Positions 8,906-22,090 of a stretch of DNA of 32,000 nt are shown here, one piece after another (the stretch's first letter is position 1; the number at the start of each line of letters is the position of its first letter). The notes beneath the pieces are model-generated. The model had not been told where the DNA came from and did not search any database. It saw nothing but the letters and a program-made list of their open reading frames with translations. Both the position numbers and the translations under genes were made by a program. The stretch covers positions 690,001 to 722,000 of the forward strand of contig NZ_AP014945.1 of assembly GCF_001548275.1 (NCBI RefSeq), written 5' to 3'. This stretch comes from Caldimicrobium thiodismutans. Lineage in GTDB: Bacteria; Desulfobacterota; Thermodesulfobacteria; Thermodesulfobacteriales; Thermodesulfobacteriaceae.

Positions 8906-8911
8906 AACTCT

Positions 8912-10111
8912 TTACCACACTCCAACCACTTCACCTTCAGAGAGGCCTTCTTTGATCTCTGTTTTTCCTCTTGCCTCCCAACCCACCTTTACAAGCCTCT
9001 TTTCCCATTTATCCCCCTTTTTAATCATCACATAGTGGTTCCCCTGGGGATCAATTTTTACTGCGCCTGAGGGCACAAGAAGGACTCCCTCTTTCTTATC
9101 AGCAATAATGGTTACCTGAGCAGTCATCTCAGGTCTTAAATAGTTTTCATAGGGGGTCAAGATGTCAAGGACTGTATCATAAAAAACTACATTGTTTTTG
9201 ATTATAGCTCCGGGATAGATGGTTCTAACTTGAGCTTGAAAGACCTTATCCGGAAAGCTATCTACCTTGAAAGTTGCGGAAAGACCTGTTTTAATTTTTC
9301 CAATATCAGTTTCATCAATATAACAGTGAATCTCTAAGCGAGAAAGGTCTATAACTGTGATAAAGGTTGGAGCATTGAGCCCGGCAACAACTGTCTCACC
9401 TTGCTGGGTGGTAACCTCAGAGACAAATCCATTAATTGGGGAATAGACAAAGGCATAATTAAGCCTAACCTTAGCTTCCTCAACCTGCCTCCGAGCTGAT
9501 TCCACCTGGGCCTTTGCTCTTTCAAGTTCTTTGGTGTATTCCTCCTCCAGGGCCTTTAACTCAGCCTTAGCTGACTCAATTTGATGAATCTTAACAAGTT
9601 TATCTCTTTCCATGCGTTCAAGATCAGTTTTAGAGATAAGCCCATCCTTAAAAAGGTTCTCAAGCCTTTTAAATTCCCGCTCAATCTGAGAAAATTCAGC
9701 CTCAAGGGCTTGAATTGATTTTTTCCTGGAGAGTATGCGTTCAGGATAAGTAACCTTTACTTTTTCAAGCTGACTTAAGGCCTGTTTATAATCATATTGA
9801 TAGCGTTCAACCTGTCTTTTTAAGTCTTCATGTTCAATAATGGCAATAAGTTGTCCTGCCTTGACAAAATCCCCCTGTCTAACAAAGAGTTTTTCTACTT
9901 TTCCGGAAATCCTTGCTCCAACTTTAATACTTGCACCTACTTGAGGTTTCACCGCTCCTGTTGCAGATACCTCAAGGTAGATAGTTCCTCTCTCAACCTT
10001 AGCTGTTTTTTTAGGAACTTGCACTCCTTCATCTTTCTTCGGTTTTTCTTTACAGCCAAATATAGAGAAGGAAATAGCGATAAACAAGATAAAAATTGCA
10101 GTTTTAACCAT
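8912..10111 (-). CDS. efflux periplasmic adaptor (HlyD/MacA family), lipoprotein
   Basis: Lipobox SIFGC, a biotinyl-lipoyl-like segment (GKVEKLFVRQGDFVKAGQLIAII), a long coiled-coil hairpin and a beta-barrel C-terminus. Confidence 0.85.
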   Translation of the reverse strand: MVKTAIFILFIAISFSIFGCKEKPKKDEGVQVPKKTAKVERGTIYLEVSATGAVKPQVGASIKVGARISGKVEKLFVRQGDFVKAGQLIAIIEHEDLKRQVERYQYDYKQALSQLEKVKVTYPERILSRKKSIQALEAEFSQIEREFKRLENLFKDGLISKTDLERMERDKLVKIHQIESAKAELKALEEEYTKELERAKAQVESARRQVEEAKVRLNYAFVYSPINGFVSEVTTQQGETVVAGLNAPTFITVIDLSRLEIHCYIDETDIGKIKTGLSATFKVDSFPDKVFQAQVRTIYPGAIIKNNVVFYDTVLDILTPYENYLRPEMTAQVTIIADKKEGVLLVPSGAVKIDPQGNHYVMIKKGDKWEKRLVKVGWEARGKTEIKEGLSEGEVVGVW

Positions 10112-10114
10112 AAT

Positions 10115-11392
10115 TTAAAGTCCTGGGACCTCTCCTGAGCTTTTGATTAGATTAAAGTAGTTAAGAATTAAATTCGTGCGTGAGACTCCTACTTGTGCCC
10201 TTGCCTGCGAGAGTCTTGCCATAACTGTTGTAAGGTCCACAATACTTGCAAGCCCGTTTTCGTATTTTTTTTGGACAAGACGATAGTCCTCCTCAAGTTT
10301 TGAAAGAAGAGCTTTGGCAGCCTCTAAGTTATCCTTTGCGGTCTGAAATAGTTTATAATTGCTAAAGACCTCTTGCTGGATGTTAAGCTCAAGCTCTCTT
10401 TTTTCAAAATTTTTTTTCTCAAGAGTTGCCCTTTCCTTTTGGAGTTTAGAAACAGTTGAAAACCCTGTAAAAAGGGGGAGGGTTATTTTTATGCCTGCCA
10501 AAAACTGAGAATCTGAATCAGGGAAAAATTTATTATCCACCCTGTAATAGTTAGCAAAAAGGTCAACCGAGGGGAGGTATTCCCCTTTCACACTTTTTAT
10601 TTTAGATTGCTGGGCAAGTATGTCCTTTTCCTTAGACAGAAGTTCTGGCCTGAGCTTTAAAGCTTTATTAATATACACAGCCAGGGGATCCAGTGTAAGC
10701 TCACTCTCTTGAAGGGGCATAAGCTCATAGTCCTCAATTTGGGTTAAATCCTGATTCATAAGAATCAAAAGCCTGGCCTTGGCAATTTCAGCTGAATATT
10801 TATAATTAGTAACATTAAATTCTGCCTCTTTAAGTCTCGCCTCAGCATCAAGGACATCTGCATAAGGGGAAAGACCAACTTCATATCTTTTTTGAGCCAA
10901 TTTTAAAATAATTTTGGCATCTTCAAGATCTGCTAAAGCGGACTCTAATAGGGCCTTTTCGTTAAAATAACTGAGATAGCTTTTAATCGTAGATAAGGCT
11001 ATGTCAAGAATTTTGCTACGGATATTTTCATCCTGAGAGGCTAAATAATAAAGGGCCTCTTTAAAGGCAAAATAGGTAGAAAAACCAGAAAAAATATTCC
11101 AGGAAAGAGTTGGGCCAAAAAGATGTGTATCATAGGAAGGTTTATTTTTCCCTGAATCTGTTCTTTGATAGGTATAACCAAGATAAAACTTTGGAAAAAA
11201 TTCGGCCCTTATAATATTTTTCTGAAAGAAAAACTCCTCTTTTTGCTTTAAAGCTGCTGAAATCTGAGGATTAGCTTTAATAGCTAAGCTTACTGCCTCA
11301 TTAAGGGTTAATATCTTCTTGGCAAAGGTATTTGCTGAAAAAATTAGTTGAAAAAAAATAAAAATAAAGAGAAATCTCAGGGTTTTTGCCAT
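10115..11392 (-). CDS. TolC-family outer membrane efflux protein
   Basis: Signal peptide ending NTFA, followed by two OEP-type repeats (LTLNEAVSLAIKANPQI ..., YADVLDAEARLKEAE ..., SIVDLTTVMARLSQAR). It is the first gene of the five-gene minus-strand operon. Confidence 0.85.
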   Translation of the reverse strand: MAKTLRFLFIFIFFQLIFSANTFAKKILTLNEAVSLAIKANPQISAALKQKEEFFFQKNIIRAEFFPKFYLGYTYQRTDSGKNKPSYDTHLFGPTLSWNIFSGFSTYFAFKEALYYLASQDENIRSKILDIALSTIKSYLSYFNEKALLESALADLEDAKIILKLAQKRYEVGLSPYADVLDAEARLKEAEFNVTNYKYSAEIAKARLLILMNQDLTQIEDYELMPLQESELTLDPLAVYINKALKLRPELLSKEKDILAQQSKIKSVKGEYLPSVDLFANYYRVDNKFFPDSDSQFLAGIKITLPLFTGFSTVSKLQKERATLEKKNFEKRELELNIQQEVFSNYKLFQTAKDNLEAAKALLSKLEEDYRLVQKKYENGLASIVDLTTVMARLSQARAQVGVSRTNLILNYFNLIKSSGEVPGL

Positions 11393-11428
11393 TTGCTCCC
11401 TATTCTTTTAAAGTGTTAGTGCTTACTT

Positions 11429-11456
11429 ACATTAACGCTAAAATATTTTTTGTCAA
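11429..11456 (-). promoter_or_regulatory. possible promoter of the TolC-MacAB operon
   Basis: The minus strand reads TTGACA (11456-11451), a 16-nt spacer, then TAATGT (11434-11429), about 35 nt upstream of ATG 11392. The -10 is weak. Confidence 0.3.
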
Positions 11457-11759
11457 GCGGTTGTATGCCTTCAAATTTTTTGATATTCAAGAGGATTTTT
11501 CCTGCTACTTTTCCCCTCACTCCTCACCTCTCACCTTTAAGGATATGGACCTATCCAGCAATTGAATTGCCTAATTAAAAAATTATTTTTTAATTTTATC
11601 ACAATCAGAGTTAGCACAAGCAATCAAAAGCTTTATTGTCAAGTTTTTTTTATATGAGAATTGGATGATCTTGGGTTAGGCTACTTAGTCCTAAAAGTTC
11701 AACCTGCTCTTTTCTATCAGGGATGCAATAGAAGATGTGACGATTTTGTTGGCCTTTAC

Positions 11760-11773
11760 TGACAAGCTTGTCA
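11760..11773. promoter_or_regulatory. 14-bp perfect palindrome, candidate operator
   Basis: TGACAAGCTTGTCA lies ~85 nt upstream of the -35 of the island promoter, in a 512-bp divergent intergenic region. Confidence 0.25.
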
Positions 11774-11857
11774 TCTCAATGAAGGCTTTGGATTGCTGAA
11801 AATAAGGAAAATATTTAATAAGTTTCTGGCATAAATTTTGTAAGTTAATTTAATACC

Positions 11858-11886
11858 TTGACATTTTTAAAATTAAAATGTAAAAT
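11858..11886 (+). promoter_or_regulatory. sigma70-type promoter of the seven-gene envelope operon
   Basis: TTGACA (11858-11863), a 17-nt spacer, then TAAAAT (11881-11886). This is followed by SD aaggagg (11898-11904) and ATG 11914. Confidence 0.55.
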
Positions 11887-11913
11887 TTCAAAATTTAAAA
11901 GGAGGTGGAGGCC

Positions 11914-12792
11914 ATGAGTAAAAGAGGGAAGGGTTTGAAGATTATTTCTTCTTTGGCCTTGGGTTTTTTTACTTGTTGCCTTTACACTCAAGATACAATA
12001 AGAGCTGAAAGTTCAGCAAGATCACTTTTCATGAGCACAGCAGGAAGCCTTACTCAGGTTGAAGATAAAGGCTCTACTAAAGGCAAAATTTCAATGCCCA
12101 AAAAAGAGGCAACCTCTAAAAAAAGAACTCAGGTTGCACAAAACACTGCAGATAGCTGGAGTTCAGGGCTTCAGATACAGGTATTAAGAGTAAAAGGAGA
12201 TTCACAAGAAGCTAAACTTGAGCCTATTAATCCTAATAAATATATTTTCAGTGAAGGTGAAAGATTTAAAGTTAGAGTTACAGTCAATTTACCTGGTGTT
12301 ATTATGTTTTATAACATTGATCCAAAAGGAGAGTCATCTTACTTAGGAGCCTGGCCAATAGAAAAGGCCTTTACATCGGTTGAACTTCCTTATGAAGGTT
12401 ATTTTGAATTTTATGGAGCAAAAGGAGTAGATAAGTTATATGTTGTCTTTAAACCCTGTCTGGTTGAATCTACCCTCAAAAGTCAGTTTATGGAAAAAAC
12501 AAATTACAGTAGAAGCATAAGATTAGTTCAGACTGATCTGACAGATAAAGTTAATCTCAAAGATGAAGTTAAAAATGCTTTACCAGTGTGCACTGCTGAT
12601 TTAAAAGAGTATACTCAAGATTCAGTTAACAGAAAGATTTATAATTATGCAACTTATTCAAGATCAATTAGAACTGTTTATGATAAAACTGATAGTTCAG
12701 TTTACGCTTTTACTTCACAATCTCAAAGAAACACTAATAGGAATATTGAAGGAGATTTAATTATGCATGTATTAAATTTACGGTTTAAATAA
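11914..12792 (+). CDS. secreted or lipoprotein with a DUF4384-like beta-sandwich domain
   Basis: Hydrophobic N-terminus ending in cysteines (ALGFFTCC). The central segment YIFSEGERFKVRVTVNLPGVIMFYNIDPKGESSYLGAWP ... GVDKLYVVFKP matches the DUF4384 pattern as I remember it. ATG 11914 with a good SD is preferred to GTG 11905. Confidence 0.55.
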   Translation: MSKRGKGLKIISSLALGFFTCCLYTQDTIRAESSARSLFMSTAGSLTQVEDKGSTKGKISMPKKEATSKKRTQVAQNTADSWSSGLQIQVLRVKGDSQEAKLEPINPNKYIFSEGERFKVRVTVNLPGVIMFYNIDPKGESSYLGAWPIEKAFTSVELPYEGYFEFYGAKGVDKLYVVFKPCLVESTLKSQFMEKTNYSRSIRLVQTDLTDKVNLKDEVKNALPVCTADLKEYTQDSVNRKIYNYATYSRSIRTVYDKTDSSVYAFTSQSQRNTNRNIEGDLIMHVLNLRFK

Positions 12793-12820
12793 AACTTCAA
12801 ACTAAATAGAGGAACAGGAT

Positions 12821-13774
12821 ATGAATATAAGATTAGTAATAGTAGGACTAATCTTATTATTCTTTTCCAACTCTATATTGTTTTTCACTGCCTATGCTTC
12901 AAATTTAGAAGTTATTCAACAACTTAAAAGGCTCAATGAGGCGTTAAAACAAACACAAGAAAGAATTAAAAATGAACTTAAAGATAAAAATAATCAAGAA
13001 ATAAACAGTCAATCCTTCCAAAGAAATATTCAAGAAGTTTTTCAAGAAGAATATAAAAATACACAAATGATAAGTTATAAAGAAGATGATTCTATATTTA
13101 ATCAGGCATTAAGGCAATGTGATGAAATGAAAAAGTCAAAAGAGGATCTTGTTAGTGGTGCAGGTAAAAAAGTTTTAACTGGAGCAGCAATTGGTGCAGC
13201 TATTGGTGCAGCGGCAGGAGGCAAAAAAAGGAGAGAGGAAGGGGCAATACTCGGAGCGATATCAGGAGCAATGGCTGGTTTAGCCTATGAACTTTGGACA
13301 AAAAAGGATCTTTTTGAAGAGTCTCCAGAAAAATTAGCTAAGAGAGTAAAATACAATCCATCTAATGGTTTATATCTTAAAATAGGTGAAATAGTTGTAA
13401 AGAATGAAAATGTAAAAACTGGTGACAATTTAAGATTAATTTTACGGGTTGAATATTTATTTCCAGAGTTTTTCAGCAATAGTGTTTCAGAAAATAAAAA
13501 TCTGTTTATGTTTGGTATGAAGCCTGTTTCAGGAGAAAAAAATGAAGAGTCCTCTTCAGTTTATCATACCATAAAAATAAGAGCATATGTAATTAACAAA
13601 GATAATCAGAATTTTGTTGCTGAGGAGGAATATTCTATACCACCTGGAACCACTCCATTTCTTTATGTCTTCCCCATTTGCGATGCTATACCAAGAGGAG
13701 AACACGAGATCAAATTCGTTGTAGAGAGAATGGGGATAAAAGATGAAAAAATTGTCAGATTTACAAAAATATAA
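12821..13774 (+). CDS. secreted coiled-coil / glycine-zipper protein with a C-terminal beta-rich domain
   Basis: Signal peptide (FTAYAS-N), then a coiled-coil region. Double glycine zipper: GAGKKVLTGAAIGAAIGAAAGG ... GAILGAISGAMAGLA. The ~150-aa C-terminal domain is unassigned. Confidence 0.6.
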   Translation: MNIRLVIVGLILLFFSNSILFFTAYASNLEVIQQLKRLNEALKQTQERIKNELKDKNNQEINSQSFQRNIQEVFQEEYKNTQMISYKEDDSIFNQALRQCDEMKKSKEDLVSGAGKKVLTGAAIGAAIGAAAGGKKRREEGAILGAISGAMAGLAYELWTKKDLFEESPEKLAKRVKYNPSNGLYLKIGEIVVKNENVKTGDNLRLILRVEYLFPEFFSNSVSENKNLFMFGMKPVSGEKNEESSSVYHTIKIRAYVINKDNQNFVAEEEYSIPPGTTPFLYVFPICDAIPRGEHEIKFVVERMGIKDEKIVRFTKI

Positions 13775-15137
13775 ATTTTTTATATTCGTAATTCTTACAA
13801 TATTGTCGATAAGTTATTTTTCTAAATCAATTGCTTATGATTATGATACTGCATCCCAGTATGATGAGGTTAAAGATAGGATAAATGAGGCTTTTAATAA
13901 AGCTGGAATTTTTGAAGCTTATGTCCAATTAGATGAAAAAACCAGAATGTATGAATTAAAAGGAAAATATAGAACTTATGATGAATTTTTATATGCCTAC
14001 ATGATTGCTCAAGCAATAGCAGGAGTCAAAAATGTATCTCCAGTGTATAGTATCAAACATGCTGTTATTATTCACACACCGATTGAGAGATGTTTACCTT
14101 ATGCATTACTCAAGAAGCCCTGTCCTCACTTAGCCAAAAAAGATTATAAAGAAGATTCCCAAGCCGCAAAAGAAATAGAAAAAAAGTTGGGTGAAAAACC
14201 TTCTAATAAGTATGCATTAGTAATTGGGGTATCATCTTTTAAAAATAAACAAATACCTGGTGTTCCTGGTGCAGATAATGATGCTCTTATATGGGGTAAA
14301 TATTTAGAGTCTGAGGGTTTTAAAGTGATTTATCTTTTAAATGAAAATGCAACTAAGGAAAAAGTTAATCTGGCAGTTGATGAGATAATTAAAAGAATGA
14401 AAGAAAATGATATATTTGTTTTCTTTGCAGCAAGTCATGGAACTCCTAAAAAGCCAGATGGGGAAGTTGGTATAGTTTTATATGATAGTGGAGATATTCA
14501 AAAAGGTAAAGTTGGTTGTGGATATGCACCACCTAATGAACCTCATCTTCAAGCAGCAAACAAGATGTGTTATTTAGTAAAAGATTCTTTTTCATTAAAA
14601 GAGGGGATTCTTGATAAATTAGCAAATAAAAAGGTTGTATTTATTCCTATTCTTGATGCTTGTTATTCAGGCGATGCTTTGAGAAGTTACTTAGGGGAAG
14701 TTATAAAAAGTGAAGAGGTAGCACCTCTTGATTTTTATGAGAAGAGGCTTAGAGAGGAAGCTCCGGCATCCCTGTATATGGTTCTTTCATCTTCCTCAGG
14801 TTTCAGACAGGCTTATGGGGCAGATGTTAGAAGTTTTACAGAAGTTGAAAAAGTTTTTAAAAGAAGTATCTCTGAGGTGCCATTTACAGCAAAAGATATA
14901 AAAAAAGAATCTGAACTTGCTCATGGAATTTTTAGTTTTTATTTTGTTAATGGATTGAAACTAAATGAGGGATATATTGCAAGAACTTATAATCAAGTAA
15001 AAGATATAATTGATAGGGAATCTGAAAGAGTGTGTTTAAAAGAGAGAGGAAGAAGTATAAGAGTTATCAGTGAATGTCCAAAAGGAGGTCAAAATCCAGT
15101 GCTTTTAAGAATAAGAAAAGAAGAATTTAAATTTTAA
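13743..15137 (+). CDS. secreted BON-like domain + caspase-fold (peptidase C14) protease
   Basis: Signal peptide. BON-like segment AYVQLDEKTRMYELKGKYRTYDEFLYAYMIAQAIAGVKNVSPVYSI. Caspase core: YALVIGVSSF, FVFFAASHGTP (catalytic His) and IPILDACYSGDAL (catalytic Cys). It overlaps the upstream gene by 32 nt. Confidence 0.75.
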   Translation: MKKLSDLQKYKFFIFVILTILSISYFSKSIAYDYDTASQYDEVKDRINEAFNKAGIFEAYVQLDEKTRMYELKGKYRTYDEFLYAYMIAQAIAGVKNVSPVYSIKHAVIIHTPIERCLPYALLKKPCPHLAKKDYKEDSQAAKEIEKKLGEKPSNKYALVIGVSSFKNKQIPGVPGADNDALIWGKYLESEGFKVIYLLNENATKEKVNLAVDEIIKRMKENDIFVFFAASHGTPKKPDGEVGIVLYDSGDIQKGKVGCGYAPPNEPHLQAANKMCYLVKDSFSLKEGILDKLANKKVVFIPILDACYSGDALRSYLGEVIKSEEVAPLDFYEKRLREEAPASLYMVLSSSSGFRQAYGADVRSFTEVEKVFKRSISEVPFTAKDIKKESELAHGIFSFYFVNGLKLNEGYIARTYNQVKDIIDRESERVCLKERGRSIRVISECPKGGQNPVLLRIRKEEFKF

Positions 15138-15153
15138 AAAGGAGGGGACAAGT

Positions 15154-16050
15154 ATGGGTGTAAAATTTGAGGGAAGAGATTATGATATAGATCAAGGCAG
15201 ATTTCAAAGTATACATATACCAAAGGCTAAAGAAGATGATATTTGGAAAAGAGATTTTTATCAAGAAATTTTTAATATAGAAAATAAAAAAATAGAAGAA
15301 TGGATAAAGAATGTTGGTCCAGAGAAAAATAAAAATGAAATAGAGACTAAGCTTAAACAATTTACAGAATTTTTAAGTGGTGAAAAAGATAAAATATTAA
15401 AAAGTTTTGATAAAGACGAATATCGGCACATGTATCAAGAAGGTAAAGAATCAAATAAATATTTAATTTTCTTAATTCTCAGTATCATTGGAGAAACTGC
15501 AATTTTAATTGTTCAGTCTTTAATGGGTGGAGGGTTTAATCCTTTAATTTTACTATACGCAGGTTTATTAGCAGTAGGAGGGTGGCTTTTAGGAAAGGTT
15601 TGGGCAAATTTTTCTATCAAATATGAGGCACAACATAAAGGTGTTTATGACCCTACGAAACATCCTTCAGTTTTTAACTTGATCTACTTTATCCTTGGTG
15701 TTGCTTTAACCTTATTTGTTGCATTTGTAAGAGCCTTTACTGATGAAGGTTTTGATATTCAGGTTTTTATACTAACAATCTTATTAGCGTTAGTTGTAGC
15801 TTTTTTTGAATCACAACGGGCAATTTGTTTAAAAAAGAAAGATTTAGCAACAACTGGACAAATGATGGCACATCTAATTTTGGCTTCAAAAAAACATAAG
15901 GAAATTTTACCGACATATATATTATTATATGAAGAAATAGTCAATAAACCAAAAGAGTCAGTAGTTAATCAAAATAATCAAGCAAAAGAGCATATGGATA
16001 TGTTAAATCATAATAGAGAATCTCAACAAAATCAAAATCCACAAAATTAA
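15154..16050 (+). CDS. polytopic membrane protein (about 4 TM) with a ~100-aa cytoplasmic N-domain and a Q/N-rich tail
   Basis: Strong SD (aaaggagggg). TM segments include YLIFLILSIIGETAILIVQSL, LILLYAGLLAVGGWLLGKVW, VFNLIYFILGVALTLFVAFV and VFILTILLALVVAFF. The tail is NQNNQAKEHMDMLNHNRESQQNQNPQN. I recognise no family. Confidence 0.55.
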   Translation: MGVKFEGRDYDIDQGRFQSIHIPKAKEDDIWKRDFYQEIFNIENKKIEEWIKNVGPEKNKNEIETKLKQFTEFLSGEKDKILKSFDKDEYRHMYQEGKESNKYLIFLILSIIGETAILIVQSLMGGGFNPLILLYAGLLAVGGWLLGKVWANFSIKYEAQHKGVYDPTKHPSVFNLIYFILGVALTLFVAFVRAFTDEGFDIQVFILTILLALVVAFFESQRAICLKKKDLATTGQMMAHLILASKKHKEILPTYILLYEEIVNKPKESVVNQNNQAKEHMDMLNHNRESQQNQNPQN

Positions 16051-16055
16051 TTAAT

Positions 16056-17114
16056 ATGAAAATCTGTCAAGGAGCTGAATTAAAATTTGAAAATTTACAG
16101 AGACTTAGATTAATAAATTTTAAGCCAAATGAATGTAAAGATATATGGGATATAAATACATTTGCTGAAAAAGAACAAGAGTATATTGAGGAATATGTAA
16201 AAAGAAAACTTAAAGATACTAAGCTAAATAAAGAGGATGAAAAGGAGCTCTTAAGAAAGGAACTTAAAATTACATTCTATATTGAACCGAAAAAAATTAA
16301 TCATAGAAGACTTAAATTTTTAGAAAAAAATCATTTTAAAGAAATTTTTACACAATTTAAACTTGAAAAAATTTTGAAAAACTGGTTGTTTTTTGGGCTC
16401 CTGGTGCCTATTTATATCATTGTAATAATAGGTTTAAATTTTTTTGAAAATATCCTTGATGGTTTTGAAGTTGGATTTGCAAAAATATTAATAGATGGAG
16501 TGATCTATGCTTTCTTATCATTAGTTGCTTGCTGGATAATAGGCTTTTCTTTAGCAAATTATTTTTATATTAATTTTGTAAATGAATATCATAATGAAAT
16601 GCAAAAGAAGGATTCAACCATAGAAAACTTTTATGAGAAATATGCTAAAGATAAGTTTTTTAAAAAATTTCACTTAATTTTTAAAGAAAAAAAAGATTCT
16701 GAAATAGATGTGAAAAATAAAATATTATTTGGAGAATCAATTCATAAAGTTTACTGTATTTTTGGTTTGCTTATTTTGATCTTTGTATATTTATCAATTG
16801 GTATATTAGATTTCAGTGATTTATATAAACTTGTAAAATTATCTTCAGGTATATTTGAAACTGCATCCTATTTTGGATTTTCAGCTCTGCTAATTTCTCT
16901 GGTTTTTAATGGATTTTTCAGAGATTATCTAAGGAATTTTATCTTATTTGAATACGAACAAGCCTTATTAGAGTATGCTTCATGCACAAAGCATAATCAC
17001 CTAATAGATGAATATATAGAGTATGCTTCTAACGAAGAGCATAATCACCAAATTGATGAATGTATTAATAAATTTTATGCAGAAAAAATTCAACCAAAGG
17101 AGGGTGAAATATGA
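16056..17114 (+). CDS. polytopic membrane protein with a K/E-rich N-domain and a duplicated HNH-x-IDE C-terminal motif
   Basis: Starts 5 nt after the upstream stop. Several TM segments (WLFFGLLVPIYIIVIIGL, VIYAFLSLVACWIIGFSLANYFYI, VYCIFGLLILIFVYLSIGIL, YFGFSALLISLVFNGFF). The C-terminus is EYASCTKHNHLIDEYI / EYASNEEHNHQIDECI. I recognise no family. Confidence 0.5.
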   Translation: MKICQGAELKFENLQRLRLINFKPNECKDIWDINTFAEKEQEYIEEYVKRKLKDTKLNKEDEKELLRKELKITFYIEPKKINHRRLKFLEKNHFKEIFTQFKLEKILKNWLFFGLLVPIYIIVIIGLNFFENILDGFEVGFAKILIDGVIYAFLSLVACWIIGFSLANYFYINFVNEYHNEMQKKDSTIENFYEKYAKDKFFKKFHLIFKEKKDSEIDVKNKILFGESIHKVYCIFGLLILIFVYLSIGILDFSDLYKLVKLSSGIFETASYFGFSALLISLVFNGFFRDYLRNFILFEYEQALLEYASCTKHNHLIDEYIEYASNEEHNHQIDECINKFYAEKIQPKEGEI

Positions 17115-17953
17115 AGGGACAATTGAAACACTTCCTGATTGCTCTTATTAGTATTCTTATTTTATTTAGCTATTCTTTTGCAAAAGAGGATATTATTTTT
17201 CTTTATGGTGGGAATGCCTGGAATCTTTTTGAAAGTTATATTAAAAAAGCTGAAAAAGAAGGGAAAAAACTTAAGCTTGGAGATTTAAAGGTTAAAGTGT
17301 GGAATGGTAAAGAATTTGCAGAATATTCAATTAAATGGCAGGATTATTTAAAAGGTGATCCAGTTTTAAAGTTATGGGAAAATAAGCTAAAAAATGTTGA
17401 AGCAAAATATGATCCAAAGGCTGTAGAGACAGCTAAAAAATATGGATGGGTAGTTTATGGAATTGGTTCCGTTCAAGCAGATTCAAGCGCCTCTGAAAAT
17501 ATTTCTAAACCACAAGCTAAAGGATCTTGTAGCCCTGATGCAGAAAGCTTTATTAATCTTGGTATTCAATCAGTAAATAACAAAAAATATGATAATGCTT
17601 TAAAGGAATTTAAAAAAGCTCTTGAAATTTCACCTACCTGTCCAGAAGCTTATGGCAATCTCGTATCCCTTTATGTAATAAAGAAAAATTATAATCTTGC
17701 CATTGATACTTATAAAGAGGGTATCAATAAGGCTGGTGATAATGGATTTCTTCATATAACAGGAGCAATTGCATATACCAAGAGAAGAGATTTTGACTAT
17801 GCTTTAATAGCCCTGGAAAAAGCTTTAACTTCAGGGTTTAAAGATAAATCAGTTTTAGATGGTAAAGACTTAGAACCTTTATTTAGTGCTAAAAAGAAAG
17901 AATTTTGTGGCATACTTGAAAGGGCTGGAATAGTATTAAAAAAGTGCCTGTAG
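17111..17953 (+). CDS. secreted TPR-repeat protein
   Basis: ATGA overlap with the upstream gene and a strong SD (aaggaggg). Signal peptide (SYSFA-K). C-terminal TPR units: AESFINLGIQSVNNKKYDNALKEFKKALEISPTCPEAYGNLVSLYVIKKNYNLAIDTYKEGI. Confidence 0.65.
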   Translation: MKGQLKHFLIALISILILFSYSFAKEDIIFLYGGNAWNLFESYIKKAEKEGKKLKLGDLKVKVWNGKEFAEYSIKWQDYLKGDPVLKLWENKLKNVEAKYDPKAVETAKKYGWVVYGIGSVQADSSASENISKPQAKGSCSPDAESFINLGIQSVNNKKYDNALKEFKKALEISPTCPEAYGNLVSLYVIKKNYNLAIDTYKEGINKAGDNGFLHITGAIAYTKRRDFDYALIALEKALTSGFKDKSVLDGKDLEPLFSAKKKEFCGILERAGIVLKKCL

Positions 17954-17965
17954 GAGGAGGGAATT

Positions 17966-18586
17966 ATGCGTAAAGTTTCAGGAGGATTACTGGGAATAGT
18001 GCTTTTATGCTTTTTTCTTCCATGGATAACTGTTTCTTGTAACAATAATAAGATTTATAGTTTTTCTGGAATTAACTTAGTTATGGGAAAAAAGATACAG
18101 TCTCCTGACGATCTCTTTGGCCCATCTAAGAATTTAAACAAGAAAGAATCAGCTAAGGAAAAAATTGTCAGGGAATGGAAAGCGATAATAGCATTTTTAG
18201 CTGGAATTGCTGGAATTTTAACTTGTTTTTTAATTAAGGCAAATCGCGTGCAGGGAATACTCACAGCTGTCTTTGGATTTCTTGGAGGTATCTTTCTTTT
18301 TCTCTTAAAGAATAAATTTGATAGTGAAATGAATGAAATTATTACGAAAAGTGCAGGGATGATAAATGTTGAGTATCATTTTGGTTTCTGGGTATCACTG
18401 TTACTCTTTTTTGTAGTAGGTATTTTGAATCTCTTATCATTTACAAATGTATTTGACAGATTACTTCCTGGGAAAGTTTTTAATAACCTGCCTGCATCAC
18501 CTCGCTGCAGTAAGTGTGGAGCAGAGGTTTCACCTGATGACAAAGTCTGCAGTAAATGTGGACATTCCTTGAAAGAAGAGACTTAA
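17966..18586 (+). CDS. membrane protein (about 4 TM) with a C-terminal zinc ribbon
   Basis: SD taggagg. TM segments, then CSKCGAEVSPDDKVCSKCG (CxxC-x10-CxxC) at the extreme C-terminus. Confidence 0.6.
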   Translation: MRKVSGGLLGIVLLCFFLPWITVSCNNNKIYSFSGINLVMGKKIQSPDDLFGPSKNLNKKESAKEKIVREWKAIIAFLAGIAGILTCFLIKANRVQGILTAVFGFLGGIFLFLLKNKFDSEMNEIITKSAGMINVEYHFGFWVSLLLFFVVGILNLLSFTNVFDRLLPGKVFNNLPASPRCSKCGAEVSPDDKVCSKCGHSLKEET

Positions 18587-18718
18587 ATGTTAGGTATGGT
18601 ATGTAGAGAAAAATTTTTTAAAAATATTAGGGCAATAGATTTAACGGTAAAGATCCATAAACTTGTGGATTAAGGGCTGTGTAATTGAAAGGTTTTAAAG
18701 AAAATAGGAGGTAGATGG

Positions 18719-20171
18719 ATGAGGCGAGGTAACTTTTTAGCCCTGATTTGGGCAGTTTTATTTTGCCTCTGGTTGGCTGGGTCTGCGATAGCTGCAACCT
18801 TTACCGTGAACACCACTGAAGATACTCCTGATGCAAGACCGGGAGATGGCACCTGTGCTGACAGTAGTGGCAGATGTTCTTTGCGTGCAGCGATAATGGA
18901 GGCAAATGCTCTGGGTGGCGGGCCCCATACTATTATCTTGCAGTCAGGACAAACTTATAATCTTTCCCTTGATCCAAATAAAGGAGATGAAGCCTGGGGT
19001 TCAGAGGATGATCTTGATATAGTTGCCGTTATAACTATCCAGGGAAATGGGGCAACAGTGCAGAGAAATCCTGTTTTCAATTGCACAGACTATGGCAATA
19101 TAGGAGCATTTCGCATCTTTGAAGTGATGAGTGGAGGCGAGCTTACAATTAAAAATTTAACGATAAAAAATGGCTGTGATAAAGATGGAGGCGGAATTAA
19201 GAATGCCGGAAAACTTAGCATCATCAGCTCTACGATCACGGGAAATAGTGCAAGCTACGACGGAGGCGGAATCTACAACTCTGGAACACTCACCATAACA
19301 GGTTCAACTATATCAGGAAATAGGGCGTTCTACTACGGAGGCGGAATCTATAACTCTGGAACAATCACCATTACAAGCTCAACCATATCTGGAAATAGTG
19401 CATACGGCTCCGTTCCCCCCGAAGGAGGCGGAATCTATAACACCAGAACTGGAACACTCACCATCACAAGCTCCATTATAACAGGAAATAGTGCAGGTAA
19501 AAACGGAGGCGGAATCTATAACTCTGGAACATTCACCATCACCAACTCCACTATATCAGGAAATAGTGCAGACTGGCGTGGAGGCGGAATCAGTAACTCT
19601 GGAACACTCACTATCACAAGCTCCACTATATCAGGAAATAATGCAGGATTTTTGGGCGGCGGAATCTATAACGATTATGGAACACTCACCATCACCAATA
19701 TCACTTTATCATGAAATAATGCCAAAAAAAAGTGGAGGAGGAATCTATAGCCGTTATGGAACTTTAAATGCAACTTTTATCACTGTTGCCAAAAATAATG
19801 CTCCAGAAGTTAGTGGTATTTACAGCATCGCATCAAGTGATAGAGTTAAAATCAAAAACTCTATAATTGTAGATAATACAGGAGGATCAAATTGTTATGG
19901 CGGTATCACTGCCTTAGGAGTTAACTTTGCTGGAGACACTTCTTGCGGTTCTGGCTTTAGATTAGCCTCTCCCTATCACCTAAAACTTCAACCCCTTGCC
20001 AACAACGGTGGCCCCACTCAGACCCATGCCCTTGACTCTGGAAGTGTTGCCATTGATGCAGTTACCGACTGCACAGACCTGAATGGCAAACCAGTTACCA
20101 CCGACCAGAGGGGAGCTCCAAGACCCCAGGGAACAAGCTGCGATGCCGGAGCTTTTGAATTCGGAAAATAG
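18719..20171 (+). pseudogene. parallel beta-helix surface/secreted protein (Pmp-repeat / choice-of-anchor-Q-like), disrupted
   Basis: Signal peptide (GSAIA-AT), then CSLRAAIMEANA, then eight GGGIYN..G.LTIT.STISGNSA turns. C-terminus: NNGGPTQTHAL ... TDQRGAPRPQGTSCDAGAFEF. The reading frame is broken by TGA at 19712-19714 (where the repeat consensus has GGA) and by an A8 run at 19724-19731 that needs A7 to join the downstream frame. Confidence 0.7.
19187..19803 (+). repeat. tandem 69-84-bp coding repeats (beta-helix turns), highly similar at the DNA level
   Basis: Recurring ggaggcggaatctataactctggaaca(c/t)tcaccatcac(a/c)a(g/a)ctccactatatcaggaaata(g/a)tgca. This also creates the spurious alternate-frame ORF starting at 19491. 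Confidence 0.85.
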
Positions 20172-20584: not shown

Positions 20585-21565
20585 ATGCAAAGGGCTAAAA
20601 AAAGTGTCATATCCAAAGTAGCCTTAAAGGAAATGTTAATTCGGGATCTCCCTGAACTTTTGAAGGAAGATCCCCTTCTTAGGGATTATGTAGCAAGTCT
20701 TTTCAAAGAAAATTTTGCAGAAAAAAGAACCACTGAAGAAGAGATCAAAGCCCTTTTAGAGGAAATTAAGAACCTAAGAATTGAAAGTGAAAAAAGATGG
20801 GAAGAACATTCAAAGAGGTTTGAGGAGCAAACTCAGATTCTGAAAGAGCATTCAAAGAGGCTTGAGGAGCATTCAAAGAGGATTGAAGAGCAAACTCAGA
20901 TTCTGAAAGAACATTCAAAGAGGCTTGAGGAGCAAACTCAGATTCTGAAAGAGCATTCAAAGAGGCTTGAGGAACATTCTCAGATTTTGAAAGAACATTC
21001 AAAGAAGCTTGAGGAACATTCTCAGATTTTGAAAGAACATTCAAAGAGGCTTGAGGAACATTCTCAGATTTTGAAAGAACATTCAAAGAAGCTTGAAGAA
21101 CTCTCTCAAGGCAATAAAATCCTGATGGAAGAAATCCTTGCCTTAAGAAAGAGACAGGATGTGCAGATTGGTGCCCTCGGGGCAAGATGGGGAATTAAAT
21201 CAGAGAAAACCTTTCGCAATGCAGTAAAAGGGCTTCTTGAGGAAACCTTTGGGGTTAAGGTAGAACATTATGAAACAACTGATTTAGAAGGTGAGGTCTT
21301 TGAAGGTTTTCCTGGAAAAAGGGTTGAAATTGACCTTATTATTAGAGATGGTGAGCTTATTGTAGCTGAGATTAAATCTTCCGTTAGTCCTGCTGATGTC
21401 TTGCTTTTTGAGAGAAAGGTAAAGTTTTTTGAGAAAAAAGAAGGGAGAAAAGTCACAAGAAAGATAATAATTTCACCTATGATTGATGATGAGGCAAAGA
21501 ACTTTTGCAAAAGTCTTGAGATAACCTTTTACACTGATGTCCCTGATAAAGAAGAAGGATTATAA
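20585..21565 (+). CDS. coiled-coil protein with a C-terminal PD-(D/E)XK-type nuclease-fold domain (DUF3782-like family)
   Basis: SD aaggggg. Central heptad array (EHSKRLE/EQTQILK). The C-terminal GKRVEIDLIIRDGELIVAEIKSS gives a D...E.K motif. This architecture is common among hypothetical proteins of thermophiles. Confidence 0.6.
   Translation: MQRAKKSVISKVALKEMLIRDLPELLKEDPLLRDYVASLFKENFAEKRTTEEEIKALLEEIKNLRIESEKRWEEHSKRFEEQTQILKEHSKRLEEHSKRIEEQTQILKEHSKRLEEQTQILKEHSKRLEEHSQILKEHSKKLEEHSQILKEHSKRLEEHSQILKEHSKKLEELSQGNKILMEEILALRKRQDVQIGALGARWGIKSEKTFRNAVKGLLEETFGVKVEHYETTDLEGEVFEGFPGKRVEIDLIIRDGELIVAEIKSSVSPADVLLFERKVKFFEKKEGRKVTRKIIISPMIDDEAKNFCKSLEITFYTDVPDKEEGL
20804..21118 (+). repeat. 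in-frame tandem repeat, 21-bp heptad / 42-bp unit, about 7.5 units
   Basis: Units at 20804, 20867, 20909, 20951, 20993, 21035 and 21077, with an extra half unit at 20846. Two sequence subtypes occur (caaactcagattctgaaa and cattctcagattttgaaa). Confidence 0.9.
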
Positions 21566-21818
21566 GAGAAGCAAAAAATTTACAAGTTTTAGTTGAAAAG
21601 TATAGAATTCCTTTGTCAGATTTATCAGATTGTTTTGGAACAAGTGGTCTTTTAAATACTACTAACAATTTAGCAGAAATTTTTGCAGATGGATCTGTAT
21701 AACTACTTGGATAGGTTTTGATCCTTCCAAGAAAAAATAAGAGAAGTAAGAGGTAAGAGTAGGGGAAGCCCTTTTGTGTTTGCCAAATCTTAGTCAATCT
21801 GTCCAATAATTTAAAGGA

Positions 21819-22090
21819 ACATATAACAGGCAAACGCCACAAAGGGGAAAACACATAGGTTTGCTTTTACTAAAAAAGCCAATTTAAAAAGAGGCAAATC
21901 TTAAGTCTCAAAGGATAGAGACGCATACAGTAACATAGGCAATCTTGCCTGTGGAGGTAAATTACACTCCAATGTATGAAAGAAACACAGACAAGAATGT
22001 CTGTGCTACAACAGACCCACAAAAAAATTCAAGGGGTATAAAATTTTAAACCCCTACTATTTAAGTCTCAAAATACCTGGACACATACAT
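21819..22090 (+). repeat. REP/REPIN-like mosaic cluster B (includes copy B of the 160-bp element, 21929-22090)
   Basis: A 30-bp module TTAAGTCTCAAA..a...gACrCATACA occurs twice in direct orientation (21901-21930 and 22061-22090). It flanks GTAA-CATAGGCAATCTTGCCTGTG ... CACAGACAAGAATGTCTGTG-CTAC ... GGGGTATAAAATTTTAAACCCC-TAC. Confidence 0.85.

What the first reader, a model, noticed from the sequence alone, without database searches (positions are those of the whole stretch)
11858..18586. Seven-gene envelope-targeted operon built around a secreted caspase, with no NTPase and no cytoplasmic component
**Seen in the sequence**
- A consensus-like promoter is followed by seven same-strand genes. 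The junctions are +28, -32, +16, +5, -4 and +12 nt.
- Every product has a signal peptide, lipobox or TM helices:
  1. A DUF4384-like lipoprotein.
  2. A coiled-coil/glycine-zipper protein.
  3. A signal peptide-BON-caspase with an intact His/Cys dyad.
  4. Two polytopic membrane proteins, each with a ~100-aa K/E-rich cytoplasmic N-domain.
  5. A secreted TPR protein.
  6. A 4-TM protein ending in a CxxC-x10-CxxC zinc ribbon.

**Established knowledge**
Caspase-fold proteases co-occur with DUF4384 and TPR modules in bacterial conflict/programmed-death-type loci. Those described are mostly cytoplasmic and NTPase-driven.

**Inference**
This looks like a periplasm/membrane-located proteolytic signalling or effector system. 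The zinc-ribbon and N-domains could be the only cytoplasmic sensors, the caspase the switch, and the glycine-zipper protein a possible membrane effector. Four of the seven proteins match no family I recognise.
Basis: partly seen in the sequence, partly recalled or inferred. Interest (0 to 1): 0.8.

Follow-up and report, generated by a model that had tools for sequence, protein, structure and literature searches.

The report
Periplasmic caspase operon with dedicated substrate
The seven genes are a real operon of Caldimicrobium thiodismutans built on an undescribed four-gene cassette that is exported to the cell envelope, found in at least 70 species of Gram-negative bacteria, in which a caspase-type protease and its neighbour protein share a short motif that looks like the protease's cutting site.

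Summary
Seven same-strand genes sit at the stated coordinates with the stated junctions. The caspase has an invariant His/Cys pair, and the products are either exported or membrane-embedded.

Three details need correcting:
- g1 is a DUF4384 homologue only by transitivity, and a lipobox is not supported.
- The BON assignment is below threshold, though three lines of evidence agree.
- g4, g5 and g7 have sizeable domains predicted to be cytoplasmic.

The conserved unit is not seven genes. It is a four-gene core: DUF4384 protein, glycine-zipper protein, BON-caspase and TPR protein. This core occurs in about 70 of the 80 related loci, spread over Aquificota, Nitrospirota, Syntrophia, Geobacter, Burkholderiales and others. 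g4 is specific to a thermophile clade. g5 and g7 are specific to Caldimicrobium.

The new finding is a short motif with an invariant Lys (Arg in thermophiles). It occurs 1-3 times in the DUF4384 protein and once in the caspase's own linker, and almost nowhere else (1 hit in 502,369 aa). Both acidic residues of the caspase's substrate pocket are invariant.

I read this as an envelope-located protease module with its own substrate. Its physiological role is unknown, and there is no defence-island context. Separately, g4 is hypervariable between near-identical strains.

The parts
11858..11886 (+). Promoter-like site TTGACA-17-TAAAAT, 28 nt upstream of the g1 ATG
   Evidence: 11 of 12 matches, the best in 11300-19000. 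Such sites are not enriched over shuffled sequence, so this is suggestive only.
11914..12792 (+). g1: exported DUF4384-family protein (292 aa from ATG 11914; alternative GTG start at 11905). Proposed multi-site substrate or pseudo-substrate of the caspase.
   Evidence: AAGGAGG lies before ATG 11914; orthologues in L001-L011; 23 of 28 orthologues hit PF14326; signal peptide followed by a conserved motif.
12166..12456 (+). DUF4384-like core of g1 (about aa 88-184, numbered from the GTG start)
   Evidence: The invariant columns of alignment A5 (G88, F115, G118, N128, G131, L147, P162, F169, G174) fall here. BLASTP links it to a Pfam-positive orthologue in L010 at E=1.4e-5.
12013..12030 (+). g1 motif copy 1, SAR|SLF, just after the predicted signal-peptide cleavage site
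12505..12522 (+). g1 motif copy 2, YSR|SIR
12655..12672 (+). g1 motif copy 3, YSR|SIR
12821..13774 (+). g2: exported protein with a K/E/Q-rich helical spacer, a glycine-zipper hairpin (aa 113-156, DNA 13157-13288) and a C-terminal beta-rich domain
   Evidence: Gly-zipper_YMGG at 25.2 bits, below cutoff; 26 of 28 orthologues hit Rick_17kDa_Anti (Gly-zipper 2TM) and 6 of 28 hit SH3_3; orthologues in the mesophile clade carry a lipobox.
13743..15137 (+). g3: signal peptide, BON-like domain (about aa 40-112, DNA 13860-14078) and caspase domain (about aa 150-464, DNA 14190-15134)
14436..14438 (+). Catalytic His232 codon (SHG)
   Evidence: Invariant in 76 of 76 orthologues
14661..14663 (+). Catalytic Cys307 codon (DACYSGD)
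   Evidence: Invariant in 76 of 76 orthologues
15045..15065 (+). The caspase's own motif copy, RGR|SIRV (aa 435-441), in a loop between Cys431 and Cys445
   Evidence: pLDDT is below 50 at residues 436-441.
15154..16050 (+). g4: inner-membrane protein with a helical N-domain predicted to be cytoplasmic, 4 TM helices and a helical tail. Specific to the thermophile clade and hypervariable between strains.
16056..17114 (+). g5: distant paralogue of g4 with the same N-domain, 4 TM and tail layout. Seen only in Caldimicrobium.
17111..17953 (+). g6: exported TPR protein (TPR at about aa 142-247, DNA 17534-17851) with an extra N-terminal domain specific to the thermophile clade
   Evidence: Orthologues in the mesophile clade are lipoproteins.
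17966..18586 (+). g7: 4-TM protein ending in a CxxC-x10-CxxC zinc ribbon (aa 180-203, DNA 18503-18574). Seen only in Caldimicrobium.
15103..16217 (+). Hypervariable island covering g4 and the first ~160 nt of g5. DNA identity to two near-identical relatives is 58-89% here.

Best explanation
**What it is.** The locus encodes an envelope-located regulated-proteolysis module. It is built on a conserved four-protein core.
- g3 is a Sec-exported caspase-family (C14) protease. It has an intact His/Cys pair, a substrate pocket of the metacaspase type that prefers a basic residue, and an N-terminal BON-like domain that probably holds it at a membrane.
- g1 is an exported DUF4384 protein. It carries 1-3 copies of a short linear motif with one invariant basic residue.
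- g2 is a glycine-zipper protein of the SlyB/17-kDa-antigen type. It is a lipoprotein in most lineages and is probably inserted in the inner leaflet of the outer membrane.
- g6 is a TPR protein, a lipoprotein in most lineages. It probably acts as scaffold or activator, as TPR lipoproteins do for Prc and CtpA.

**Proposed mechanism (inferred).** The caspase is made as a proenzyme. It cuts itself at the motif copy in its own exposed loop. It then cuts, or is held in check by, the same motif in g1. This releases or remodels g1's N-terminus and its C-terminal strand-repeat segment.

**Accessory genes.** In the thermophile clade three inner-membrane proteins (g4, g5, g7) are added. Most of their mass is predicted to face the cytoplasm, so they could couple the periplasmic module to the cytoplasm.

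**Shown:** gene content, co-conservation, fold, catalytic and pocket residues, and the distribution of the motif.

**Inferred:** export, cleavage at the motif, the roles of g2 and g6, and any physiological output.
For: **Core synteny.** The order g1-g2-g3-g6 is kept in about 70 of 80 species-level loci across more than 6 phyla. The four genes also stay together in a permuted order, g2-g3-g1-X-g6, in L062 and in Paraburkholderia L092.

**Catalytic competence.**
- His232 and Cys307 are invariant in 76 of 76 orthologues, as are Asp180 and Asp305.
- These two Asp residues sit where TbMCA2 has Asp95 and Asp211, the residues that accommodate basic substrates (PMC6426788; alignment to metacaspase-4).
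- The model has a caspase fold.

**The motif.**
- G[ASG]K[AD][ILM][VFMILY] occurs 140 times in 68 g1 ORFs and 68 times in 78 caspase ORFs. It occurs once in g2, never in g6, and once in 502,369 aa of all other ORFs in the same loci.
- 64 of the caspase copies lie at one alignment position, in the loop after the catalytic-Cys strand.
- The consensus sequences are PkGAK|AiFDSGeG, GaK|DivxEd and kRLlGaK|DiVled.
- The basic residue is Lys wherever the caspase reads D.CYSNG. It is Arg wherever the caspase reads DACYSGD, as in the window.

**Export.**
- Signal peptides are conserved in g1 and g3, and lipoboxes in mesophile-clade g2 and g6.
- Three conserved Cys pairs occur in all 16 thermophile-clade caspases of alignment A1.
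- BON is supported by 13 of 20 N-domains hitting Pfam BON, by OsmY as the top PDB profile hit, and by an alpha-beta-beta-alpha-beta topology in the model.

**Precedent.** The TPR lipoprotein LbcA activates the periplasmic protease CtpA (PMC8764530, PMC11021448; abstracts).
Against: - No cleavage has been observed. The motif could equally be a docking strand for the TPR or BON domain.
- The Lys/Arg switch coincides with a single phylogenetic split, so it counts as one event rather than independent covariation.
- Motif copy 1 lies only a few residues from the predicted mature N-terminus of g1. Cutting there would remove almost nothing.
- In the thermophile clade the caspase's own motif copy sits in varying positions: a late insert in some sequences, the linker in others, and none found in L001 with my pattern.
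- Export was judged from hydropathy and by eye, not with SignalP or DeepTMHMM.
- BON and the window's glycine zipper are below the Pfam cutoffs.
- The window's g2 and g6 lack lipoboxes, so their membrane attachment is unclear in this organism.
- Nothing indicates the signal that triggers the system or its physiological output.
Confidence: 0.5

Rival explanations
1. This is a conflict, abortive-infection or programmed-death system located in the envelope. A signal reaches the caspase through g4, g5 and g7. The caspase then activates a membrane-damaging effector, either the glycine-zipper protein or a fragment of g1, and the cell dies or stops growing.
For: - Caspase-like proteases that unleash pore-forming partners are established in defence, for example EACC1, Pepco and gasdermin (bioRxiv 10.1101/2025.11.14.688446; PMC7159879).
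- The best NCBIfam and PADLOC hits for g3 are defence-associated caspase models.
- The operon has lower GC (24-33%) than its flanks (about 38%).
- The family is sparse and looks horizontally spread. Syntrophus and Geobacter copies are 81% identical, and Caldimicrobium groups with Aquificota.
- g4 is hypervariable between strains that are 97-99% identical elsewhere. Its variable segments are old mosaic alleles (dS 0.76-0.97) that map mostly to its predicted cytoplasmic parts. This pattern is typical of genes under diversifying or frequency-dependent selection.
Against: - NCBIfam caspase_w_EACC1 scores 36 bits against a cutoff of 140, and no EACC1, gasdermin or other known effector model hits any partner.
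- The candidate cleavage motif is essentially absent from the glycine-zipper protein.
- 108 neighbouring genes from 36 loci show no recurrent defence family.
- There are no phage hits and only one megaplasmid hit.
- The core proteins are strongly conserved across phyla (45-68% identity), unlike fast-evolving immune sensors.
- The core has no sensor, NTPase or nucleotide-signalling part.
- g4 is absent from most of the family, so its variability says little about what the core does.
Confidence: 0.2
2. The motif is a docking strand rather than a cleavage site. It is bound by the TPR protein or the BON domain, and this assembles caspase and DUF4384 protein into one complex. The true substrates are other envelope proteins such as cell-wall hydrolases, as in NlpI-Prc and LbcA-CtpA.
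For: - TPR domains commonly bind short linear peptides (general knowledge).
- The motif has the alternating pattern of a beta-strand (K-D-I-V-x-E-D) and is conserved on both sides of the basic residue.
- Copy 1 lies at the very N-terminus of g1, where cutting would achieve little.
- Transglycosylase SLT (4) and LysM (2) domains occur among the 108 neighbouring genes.
- 6 of 28 g2 orthologues carry SH3_3 domains, which often bind peptidoglycan.
Against: - An invariant Lys or Arg is exactly what a caspase with two conserved pocket Asp residues should recognise (PMC6426788).
- The copy inside the caspase lies in the loop after the catalytic-Cys strand, the usual place for self-processing in this protease family (plus general knowledge of caspases and metacaspases).
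- The SLT and LysM neighbours are few and not consistently placed.
Confidence: 0.15
3. The cassette is a maturation or anchoring machine for large secreted surface proteins encoded next to it. The caspase trims them or attaches them by transpeptidation, as other proteases of the same clan do.
For: - In at least 10 loci a secreted protein of 1300-1700 aa directly follows the TPR gene. These carry PKD, TSP-like and TPR repeats (L022, L030, L031, L051, L054, L067, L068, L073, L079, L083).
- A downstream family that shares a C-terminal domain ending in '...TGLR' occurs in 12 loci.
- In the window and in L093 a secreted beta-helix (PMP-repeat) protein follows g7.
Against: - These neighbours are not homologous across lineages and are missing from many loci, including the Aquificota loci.
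- The motif was found only once in all non-core ORFs, so they do not carry the candidate recognition site.
- No C14 peptidase is known to me to act as a transpeptidase.
Confidence: 0.1

Closest known systems
Orthocaspases / metacaspases (MEROPS family C14, clan CD), e.g. TbMCA2, AtMC4/AtMC9, Geobacter GSU0716 (PDB 3BIJ)
   Same: - The caspase fold.
- The SHG...D-x-C-x-S-G catalytic pair.
- The two pocket Asp residues that select Arg or Lys.
- A flexible loop after the catalytic-Cys strand that carries a basic site suited to self-processing.
   Different: - A Sec signal peptide and an N-terminal BON-like domain.
- Three thermophile-specific Cys pairs.
- A fixed operon partnership with DUF4384, glycine-zipper and TPR proteins.
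- Only about 60 of roughly 49,000 caspase-like cluster representatives cover the N-domain.
- Exported caspase homologues were previously proposed only for the catalytically dead cyanobacterial YS pseudo-orthocaspases, which have TAT-like signals (PMC6426788).
Protease-effector defence modules (EACC1-caspase, Pepco-protease, gasdermin-caspase, Craspase Csx29-Csx30)
   Same: - A caspase-like protease is encoded next to a small partner that it is thought to cut.
- Some Csx30 C-terminal domains are DUF4384 (bioRxiv 10.1101/2022.08.17.504292).
- EACC1 has a Gly-rich membrane helix (PMC7159879).
   Different: - Those systems are cytoplasmic and are fused or linked to sensors such as STAND/Avs ATPases, CRISPR effectors or DGRs.
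- This one is exported and has no NTPase or nucleic-acid part.
- No partner here matches EACC1, Pepco or gasdermin models.
- There is no defence-island context.
TPR-lipoprotein / periplasmic protease pairs (LbcA-CtpA of P. aeruginosa; NlpI-Prc of E. coli)
   Same: - A periplasmic protease encoded with, or working with, a TPR lipoprotein that scaffolds or activates it.
- Regulated degradation of specific envelope proteins (PMC6050968, PMC8764530, PMC11021448).
   Different: - The protease here is a C14 cysteine protease with a BON domain, not an S41 serine protease with a PDZ domain.
- The candidate substrate is a dedicated DUF4384 protein encoded in the operon, not a cell-wall hydrolase.
- A glycine-zipper protein is an obligatory fourth partner.
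SlyB / YfgH / 17-kDa-antigen glycine-zipper 2TM outer-membrane lipoproteins
   Same: g2 orthologues have a lipobox followed by a two-helix glycine zipper, and 26 of 28 hit PF05433. Members of this family act in the outer-membrane stress response (bioRxiv 10.64898/2025.12.22.696046 and 10.64898/2026.06.08.730324).
   Different: - g2 has an additional conserved beta-rich domain of about 130 aa, and sometimes an SH3 domain.
- The window copy has lost the lipobox and gained a helical spacer of about 85 aa.
- g2 is always encoded beside a caspase.

Membership tests
Peptidase C14 (caspase / metacaspase / orthocaspase) | Caspase-hemoglobinase fold, with sequence membership above the curated cutoff | tested here: met
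   - Pfam PF00656: 38.9 bits against a cutoff of 21.4, and 19 of 19 homologues hit.
- Foldseek E of about 2e-8 to MALT1, GSU0716, metacaspase-9 and caspases over about 310 columns.
Peptidase C14 (caspase / metacaspase / orthocaspase) | Catalytic His-Cys pair | tested here: met
   SHG (His232) and DAC (Cys307) are invariant in 76 of 76 orthologues.
Peptidase C14 (caspase / metacaspase / orthocaspase) | Acidic S1 pocket (two Asp) giving Arg/Lys specificity, as in orthocaspases and metacaspases | tested here: met
   - Asp180 (in G-A-D-N-D) and Asp305 (D-x-C) are invariant in 76 of 76 orthologues.
- Their positions correspond to TbMCA2 Asp95 and Asp211 by motif, and by the HMMER alignment to metacaspase-4.
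- The correspondence rests on sequence alignment, not on a superposition.
Peptidase C14 (caspase / metacaspase / orthocaspase) | Proteolytic activity | not testable with these tools
   This needs biochemistry.
Caspase-effector anti-phage modules (EACC1-caspase and relatives) | Membership of the EACC1-associated caspase subfamily | tested here: not met
   NCBIfam NF047832 scores 36.4 bits against a cutoff of 140. PADLOC gives only the generic 'caspase' model at E=2.2e-8.
Caspase-effector anti-phage modules (EACC1-caspase and relatives) | An adjacent known effector (EACC1, Pepco, gasdermin, MBL, alpha/beta hydrolase) and a fused or linked sensor or NTPase | tested here: not met
   No such hit in Pfam, NCBIfam or PADLOC for g1, g2, g4, g5, g6 or g7. 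There is no NTPase in the operon.
Caspase-effector anti-phage modules (EACC1-caspase and relatives) | Recurrent location among defence genes | tested here: not met
   108 neighbouring genes of 36 loci show no recurrent PADLOC family. The commonest are 3 cyclase-type and 2 TIR-type hits.
DUF4384 (PF14326), for g1 | Match to the family model | tested here: inconclusive
   - The window copy has no hit at E<=1.
- 23 of 28 aligned orthologues hit, with a best E of 1.5e-16.
- BLASTP links the window copy to the Pfam-positive L010 orthologue at E=1.4e-5.
BON domain (PF04972), for the N-domain of g3 | Match to the family model, and an alpha-beta-beta-alpha-beta fold with the conserved Gly | tested here: inconclusive
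   - The window copy has no hit.
- 13 of 20 orthologous N-domains hit, with a best E of 0.0023.
- The profile's top PDB hit is OsmY 8RJX at E=0.0024, aligning to both of its BON domains.
- The model gives H-E-E-H-E at residues 40-111.
- Gly74 is present in 75 of 76 orthologues.
Glycine-zipper 2TM outer-membrane lipoproteins (SlyB / PF05433), for g2 | A glycine-zipper hairpin | tested here: inconclusive
   The window copy is below cutoff (PF13441 25.2 against 28.9; PF05433 16.6 against 24.2). 26 of 28 orthologues hit PF05433.
Glycine-zipper 2TM outer-membrane lipoproteins (SlyB / PF05433), for g2 | Lipoprotein signal (lipobox Cys) | tested here: not met
   - The window g2 has an AYA|S signal-peptidase-I type site and no Cys in the signal region.
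- Most mesophile-clade orthologues do have a lipobox. A strict pattern finds 37 of 64.
TPR-lipoprotein + periplasmic protease complexes (LbcA-CtpA, NlpI-Prc) | An S41 C-terminal processing protease with a PDZ domain | tested here: not met
   The protease here is C14. No S41 or PDZ hit was found.
TPR-lipoprotein + periplasmic protease complexes (LbcA-CtpA, NlpI-Prc) | A TPR lipoprotein partner | tested here: inconclusive
   - TPR is above cutoff in g6.
- The lipobox Cys column is at least 90% conserved in alignment A8.
- The window copy instead has an SFA|K signal-peptidase-I type site.

The most novel reading that the evidence does not exclude
Diderm bacteria possess a self-contained caspase pathway in the periplasm that has not been described. 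A BON-anchored proenzyme and a dedicated DUF4384 protein share one cleavage motif. A TPR protein and a glycine-zipper outer-membrane protein complete the complex. In thermophiles the pathway is wired to the cytoplasm through a hypervariable inner-membrane protein. On this reading it acts as an envelope-located sensing or death switch, distinct from all cytoplasmic, NTPase-driven caspase systems.
Probability: 0.3. Interest if true: 0.8.

Novelty: new variant of a known kind. Interest (0 to 1): 0.66.

Why it matters
Bacterial caspase homologues are currently understood as cytoplasmic executioners attached to immune sensors, or as orphan 'orthocaspases' with no known substrates.

This cassette offers two things that are usually missing:
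- a defined cellular compartment, the periplasm;
- a candidate substrate with mapped candidate cleavage sites, encoded right next to the protease and changing together with it.

That makes the question 'what does a bacterial caspase cut, and what for?' directly testable. The Caldimicrobium and Aquificota versions are thermostable, which should help biochemistry and structural work.

The finding also assigns a first working role to DUF4384, a domain often fused to proteases and kinases. It adds a cysteine-protease counterpart to the TPR-lipoprotein/protease theme of envelope control.

The strain-level hypervariability of g4 suggests ongoing selection on the thermophile version.

Tried and rejected
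- **Exact-sequence look-up of the window caspase** found nothing. Its identity came instead from the homology search: THC_0704 of Caldimicrobium thiodismutans.
- **Word-indexed homology searches for g4**, with a single sequence and with a 9-sequence profile, returned only 3 and 5 proteins. The g4 alignment for folding therefore stayed shallow (7 rows).
- **Weak g4 hits** to DUF2207_C (E=3.7e-4) and SLATT_1 (E=0.02) lie in TM segments and are below cutoff. I did not use them.
I therefore have no model of g1 or of a g1-g3 complex.
- **Gene conversion from g5** as the source of g4 variability is rejected. The variable segments are only 21-38% identical to g5.
- **'g1 is a lipoprotein'** is rejected. 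It has no canonical lipobox and the Cys is not conserved.
- **'g2 is the caspase's target'** is not supported by the motif scan.
- **Phage and plasmid origin:** there are no phage hits, and one hit on a 1.09-Mb Paraburkholderia replicon whose record carries no annotation for the region.
- **Literature searches** for DUF4384, BON with caspase, orthocaspase with periplasm or signal peptide, and caspase with glycine zipper, TPR and operon found no description of this cassette. The library does not hold most subscription-journal papers.

Full report
**Source and observation.** The window comes from Caldimicrobium thiodismutans; the caspase is THC_0704.
- The most likely g1 start is ATG 11914, which follows AAGGAGG, rather than GTG 11905.
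- TTGACA-17-TAAAAT at 11858-11886 is the best promoter-like site in the region. Such sites are no more frequent here than in shuffled sequence.
- The operon has lower GC (24-33%) than its flanks (about 38%).
- Upstream and divergent lies a TolC/HlyD/MacB-type efflux operon. Downstream lie a PMP-repeat beta-helix protein, a PD-(D/E)XK protein and NurA-HerA.

**What the seven products are.**
- **g3** is a genuine C14 peptidase.
  - Pfam gives 38.9 bits against a cutoff of 21.4.
  - A profile of its homologues hits GSU0716, metacaspases and caspase-4 in the PDB.
  - The AlphaFold model (pLDDT 78.8, pTM 0.77) matches MALT1, GSU0716, metacaspase-9 and caspases over about 310 columns.
  - His232, Cys307, Asp180 and Asp305 are invariant in 76 orthologues. 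These two Asp residues sit where metacaspases have the two Asp that accommodate basic substrates (PMC6426788).
- **The N-domain of g3** is BON-like, but only below threshold.
  - 13 of 20 orthologous N-domains hit Pfam BON, with a best E of 0.0023.
  - OsmY is the top PDB profile hit, at E=0.0024.
  - The model has the alpha-beta-beta-alpha-beta order expected for BON.
- **g1** has no Pfam hit itself, but 23 of 28 aligned orthologues hit DUF4384.
- **g2** has a glycine-zipper hairpin that is below cutoff in the window. 26 of 28 orthologues hit the Gly-zipper 2TM family, and 6 of 28 carry SH3_3.
- **g6** is a TPR protein, and **g7** ends in a zinc ribbon.
- **g4 and g5** are distant paralogues. 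Each has a helical K/E-rich N-domain, 4 TM helices with very short outer loops, and a helical tail.
- The g4 model has no significant PDB neighbour.

**Topology.** I could not run SignalP or DeepTMHMM.
- Hydropathy and inspection give N-terminal signal-like segments ending in IRA, AYA, SIA and SFA for g1, g2, g3 and g6. The same layout recurs in orthologues.
- In the large mesophile clade, g2 and g6 are lipoproteins and g1 and g3 are not.
- All 16 thermophile-clade caspases in alignment A1 carry three conserved, closely spaced Cys pairs that the mesophile members lack. This fits disulfide bonds in an exported protein, but that is an inference.
- Because g4, g5 and g7 carry large domains predicted to be cytoplasmic, 'no cytoplasmic component' overstates the case.

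**Co-conservation.**
- The caspase's close homologues sit in the same five-gene block, g1-g2-g3-g4-g6, in Aquificota and related metagenome contigs. The flanking housekeeping genes differ in each.
- Distant homologues (25-32% identity) sit in g1-g2-g3-(membrane/Zn-ribbon)-g6 blocks whose g1 is Pfam-positive for DUF4384.
- A scan of one genome per species returned 80 loci. They come from Aquificota, Thermodesulfobacteriota, Nitrospirota, Methylomirabilota, Syntrophia, Syntrophorhabdia, Geobacter, Burkholderiales and Gammaproteobacteria.
- I called ORFs in these loci and searched them with iterated HMMs. About 70 of them show g1-g2-g3-g6 in that order.
- The g4 family matched in only 18 sources: 12 distinct loci of the thermophile clade (after removing redundant fetches), of which the window has two copies, plus three mesophile-clade ORFs that I did not examine.
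- g5 and g7 occur only in Caldimicrobium. The full seven-gene order recurs in L093, and six of the genes in L094.
- In L062 and Paraburkholderia L092 the order is permuted (g2-g3-g1-X-g6), yet the four genes stay together.
- Among 1.84 billion representative proteins, 48,991 are caspase-like at E<=1e-3. Only 129 reach 1e-30, and about 60 of the listed ones cover the N-domain.

**The main new finding: a shared motif.** g1 carries a short motif with one invariant basic residue.
- One copy follows the signal peptide directly, and one or two more lie in the C-terminal part.
- In the mesophile clade the pattern G[ASG]K[AD][ILM][VFMILY] occurs 140 times in 68 g1 ORFs and 68 times in 78 caspase ORFs.
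- It occurs once in g2, never in g6, and once in 502,369 aa of all other ORFs from the same loci.
- 64 of the caspase copies sit at a single alignment position, in the loop after the catalytic-Cys strand. From general knowledge of the family, this is where caspases and metacaspases are usually self-processed.
- The consensus sequences are PkGAK|AiFDSGeG, GaK|DivxEd and kRLlGaK|DiVled.
- In the thermophile clade every copy uses Arg instead.
  - The window's g1 has SAR|SLF, YSR|SIR and YSR|SIR.
  - Its caspase has GR|SIRV in a low-confidence loop between Cys431 and Cys445.
  - The caspase there reads DACYSGD rather than D.CYSNG after the catalytic Cys.
- Taken with the conserved acidic pocket, the simplest reading is that the motif is the protease's recognition site. 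It would serve for self-processing and for cutting, or being blocked by, g1.
- Caveats: no cleavage has been observed, the Lys/Arg switch is a single phylogenetic event, and a docking role for the motif is not excluded.

**What it probably does.** I favour an envelope-located regulated-proteolysis module (confidence 0.5).
- The BON domain would place the caspase at a membrane.
- The TPR protein would act as scaffold or activator, by analogy with LbcA-CtpA and NlpI-Prc.
- The glycine-zipper protein would anchor the complex in the outer membrane, by analogy with SlyB and YfgH.
- g1 would be the substrate or regulator.
- The physiological output is unknown.

The defence or programmed-death reading is weaker for the core.
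- No known effector or sensor model hits any partner.
- Neighbouring genes show no recurrent defence family.
- There are no phage hits.
- The core proteins are 45-68% identical across phyla.

Sparse distribution and apparent horizontal spread are compatible with an accessory role of either kind.

**Hypervariable g4.**
- Window, L093 and L094 are 95-100% identical in DNA across the operon, except for an island at about 15103-16217 (g4 and the start of g5). There identity falls to 58-89%, with different boundaries in the two relatives.
- At protein level g1, g2, g3, g6 and g7 are 97-99% identical and g5 is 92-94%, but g4 is 72% and 57%.
- The variable segments have dS 0.76-0.97 and dN 0.36-0.48, against dS 0.02-0.08 elsewhere in the operon. 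They are therefore old, diverged alleles exchanged by recombination.
- They do not derive from g5.
- In alignment A6 they map mainly to the N-domain, the TM2-TM3 loop and the tail, while TM1, TM3 and TM4 stay conserved; TM2 also diverges in L093.
- This pattern is typical of genes under diversifying or frequency-dependent selection. It is the best argument for a conflict-type role of the thermophile accessory genes. I cannot explain it further.

**Novelty.** The library searches found no description of this cassette, of a BON-caspase, or of a role for DUF4384 as a caspase partner. The one exception is the note that some Csx30 C-terminal domains are DUF4384. The library lacks most subscription-journal papers. 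I rate the finding as a new variant of a known kind: a bacterial caspase-family protease system in a new compartment with a new, fixed partner set.

Noticed in passing
window 15103-16217 (g4 and the first ~160 nt of g5); L093 4101-5100; L094 2540-3760: This is a hypervariable island inside an operon that is otherwise 95-100% identical across three Caldimicrobium sources. g4 is 72% and 57% identical at protein level. The variable segments have dS of 0.76-0.97, the recombination boundaries differ between relatives, and the segments are not derived from the adjacent paralogue g5.
   Followed up: partly
window 18719-20171 (ORFs 18719-19714 and 19491-20171); variable at 19218-19762: A secreted PMP-repeat/beta-helix protein starts 133 nt after g7. 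It appears as two overlapping ORFs, so it may carry a frameshift or be two genes. It contains a second strain-variable island (79-87% identity to L093). L093 has ORFs of 342 and 169 aa at the same place.
   Followed up: partly
L022 5071-9576; L031 8071-13179; L054 7986-13104; L068 7846-12879 (also L030, L051, L067, L073, L079, L083): Secreted or anchored proteins of 1300-1700 aa directly follow the TPR gene in many mesophile-clade loci. They are mostly without family assignment. They carry PKD repeats, TPR repeats and Cys-rich 'CSYEYSEWGECS..KQTRTV' units that resemble thrombospondin/midkine-type repeats.
   Followed up: partly
L037 7923-9095, 9136-10641, 10652-11377 (and L032, L035, L038, L040, L045, L052, L084): In Syntrophaceae the cassette is followed by three genes: a DUF6438 protein, a BepA-like M48-peptidase+TPR protein, and a 241-aa protein. 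The C-terminal domain of the DUF6438 protein (ending '...TGLR') is shared with the giant protein of L068.
   Followed up: partly
L062 and L092 (Paraburkholderia sp. PREW-6R, NZ_CP155075.1, about 823295-838011): The gene order is permuted to g2-g3-g1-(~1000 aa)-g6 in some Burkholderiales. L092 lies on a 1.09-Mb replicon of a cultured strain, which could serve as an experimental host. The record carries no annotation for this region.
   Followed up: partly
L008 6632-7567 and L009 6116-6847; L042 8768-9559; L048; L023; L046: Non-homologous membrane proteins with zinc ribbons recur next to the cassette in several lineages. In L009 the TPR protein itself has an N-terminal zinc ribbon and a TM anchor. 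A zinc-ribbon link to the cytoplasm may therefore have been acquired more than once.
   Followed up: no
L011 9361-10943 (also L014): In Hydrogenobacter the TPR gene and the g4-type gene lie on the opposite strand, directly after the caspase gene. This is an inversion of the 3' half of the block.
   Followed up: no
L001 3955-4424: Two short ORFs (66 and 104 aa) lie between the caspase gene and g4 in this thermophile metagenome contig. They may be remnants of a second g4/g5-type gene.
   Followed up: no
window 20585-25117: A PD-(D/E)XK/DUF3782 protein is followed by a NurA-HerA pair downstream of the operon. No link to the operon is evident.
   Followed up: no
window 5818-11392 (- strand): A TolC-like OEP, a HlyD-type adaptor, an ABC ATPase and two MacB/FtsX-type permeases form a divergent envelope efflux or lipoprotein-release-like operon. 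It shares the 512-nt intergenic region with g1.
   Followed up: no
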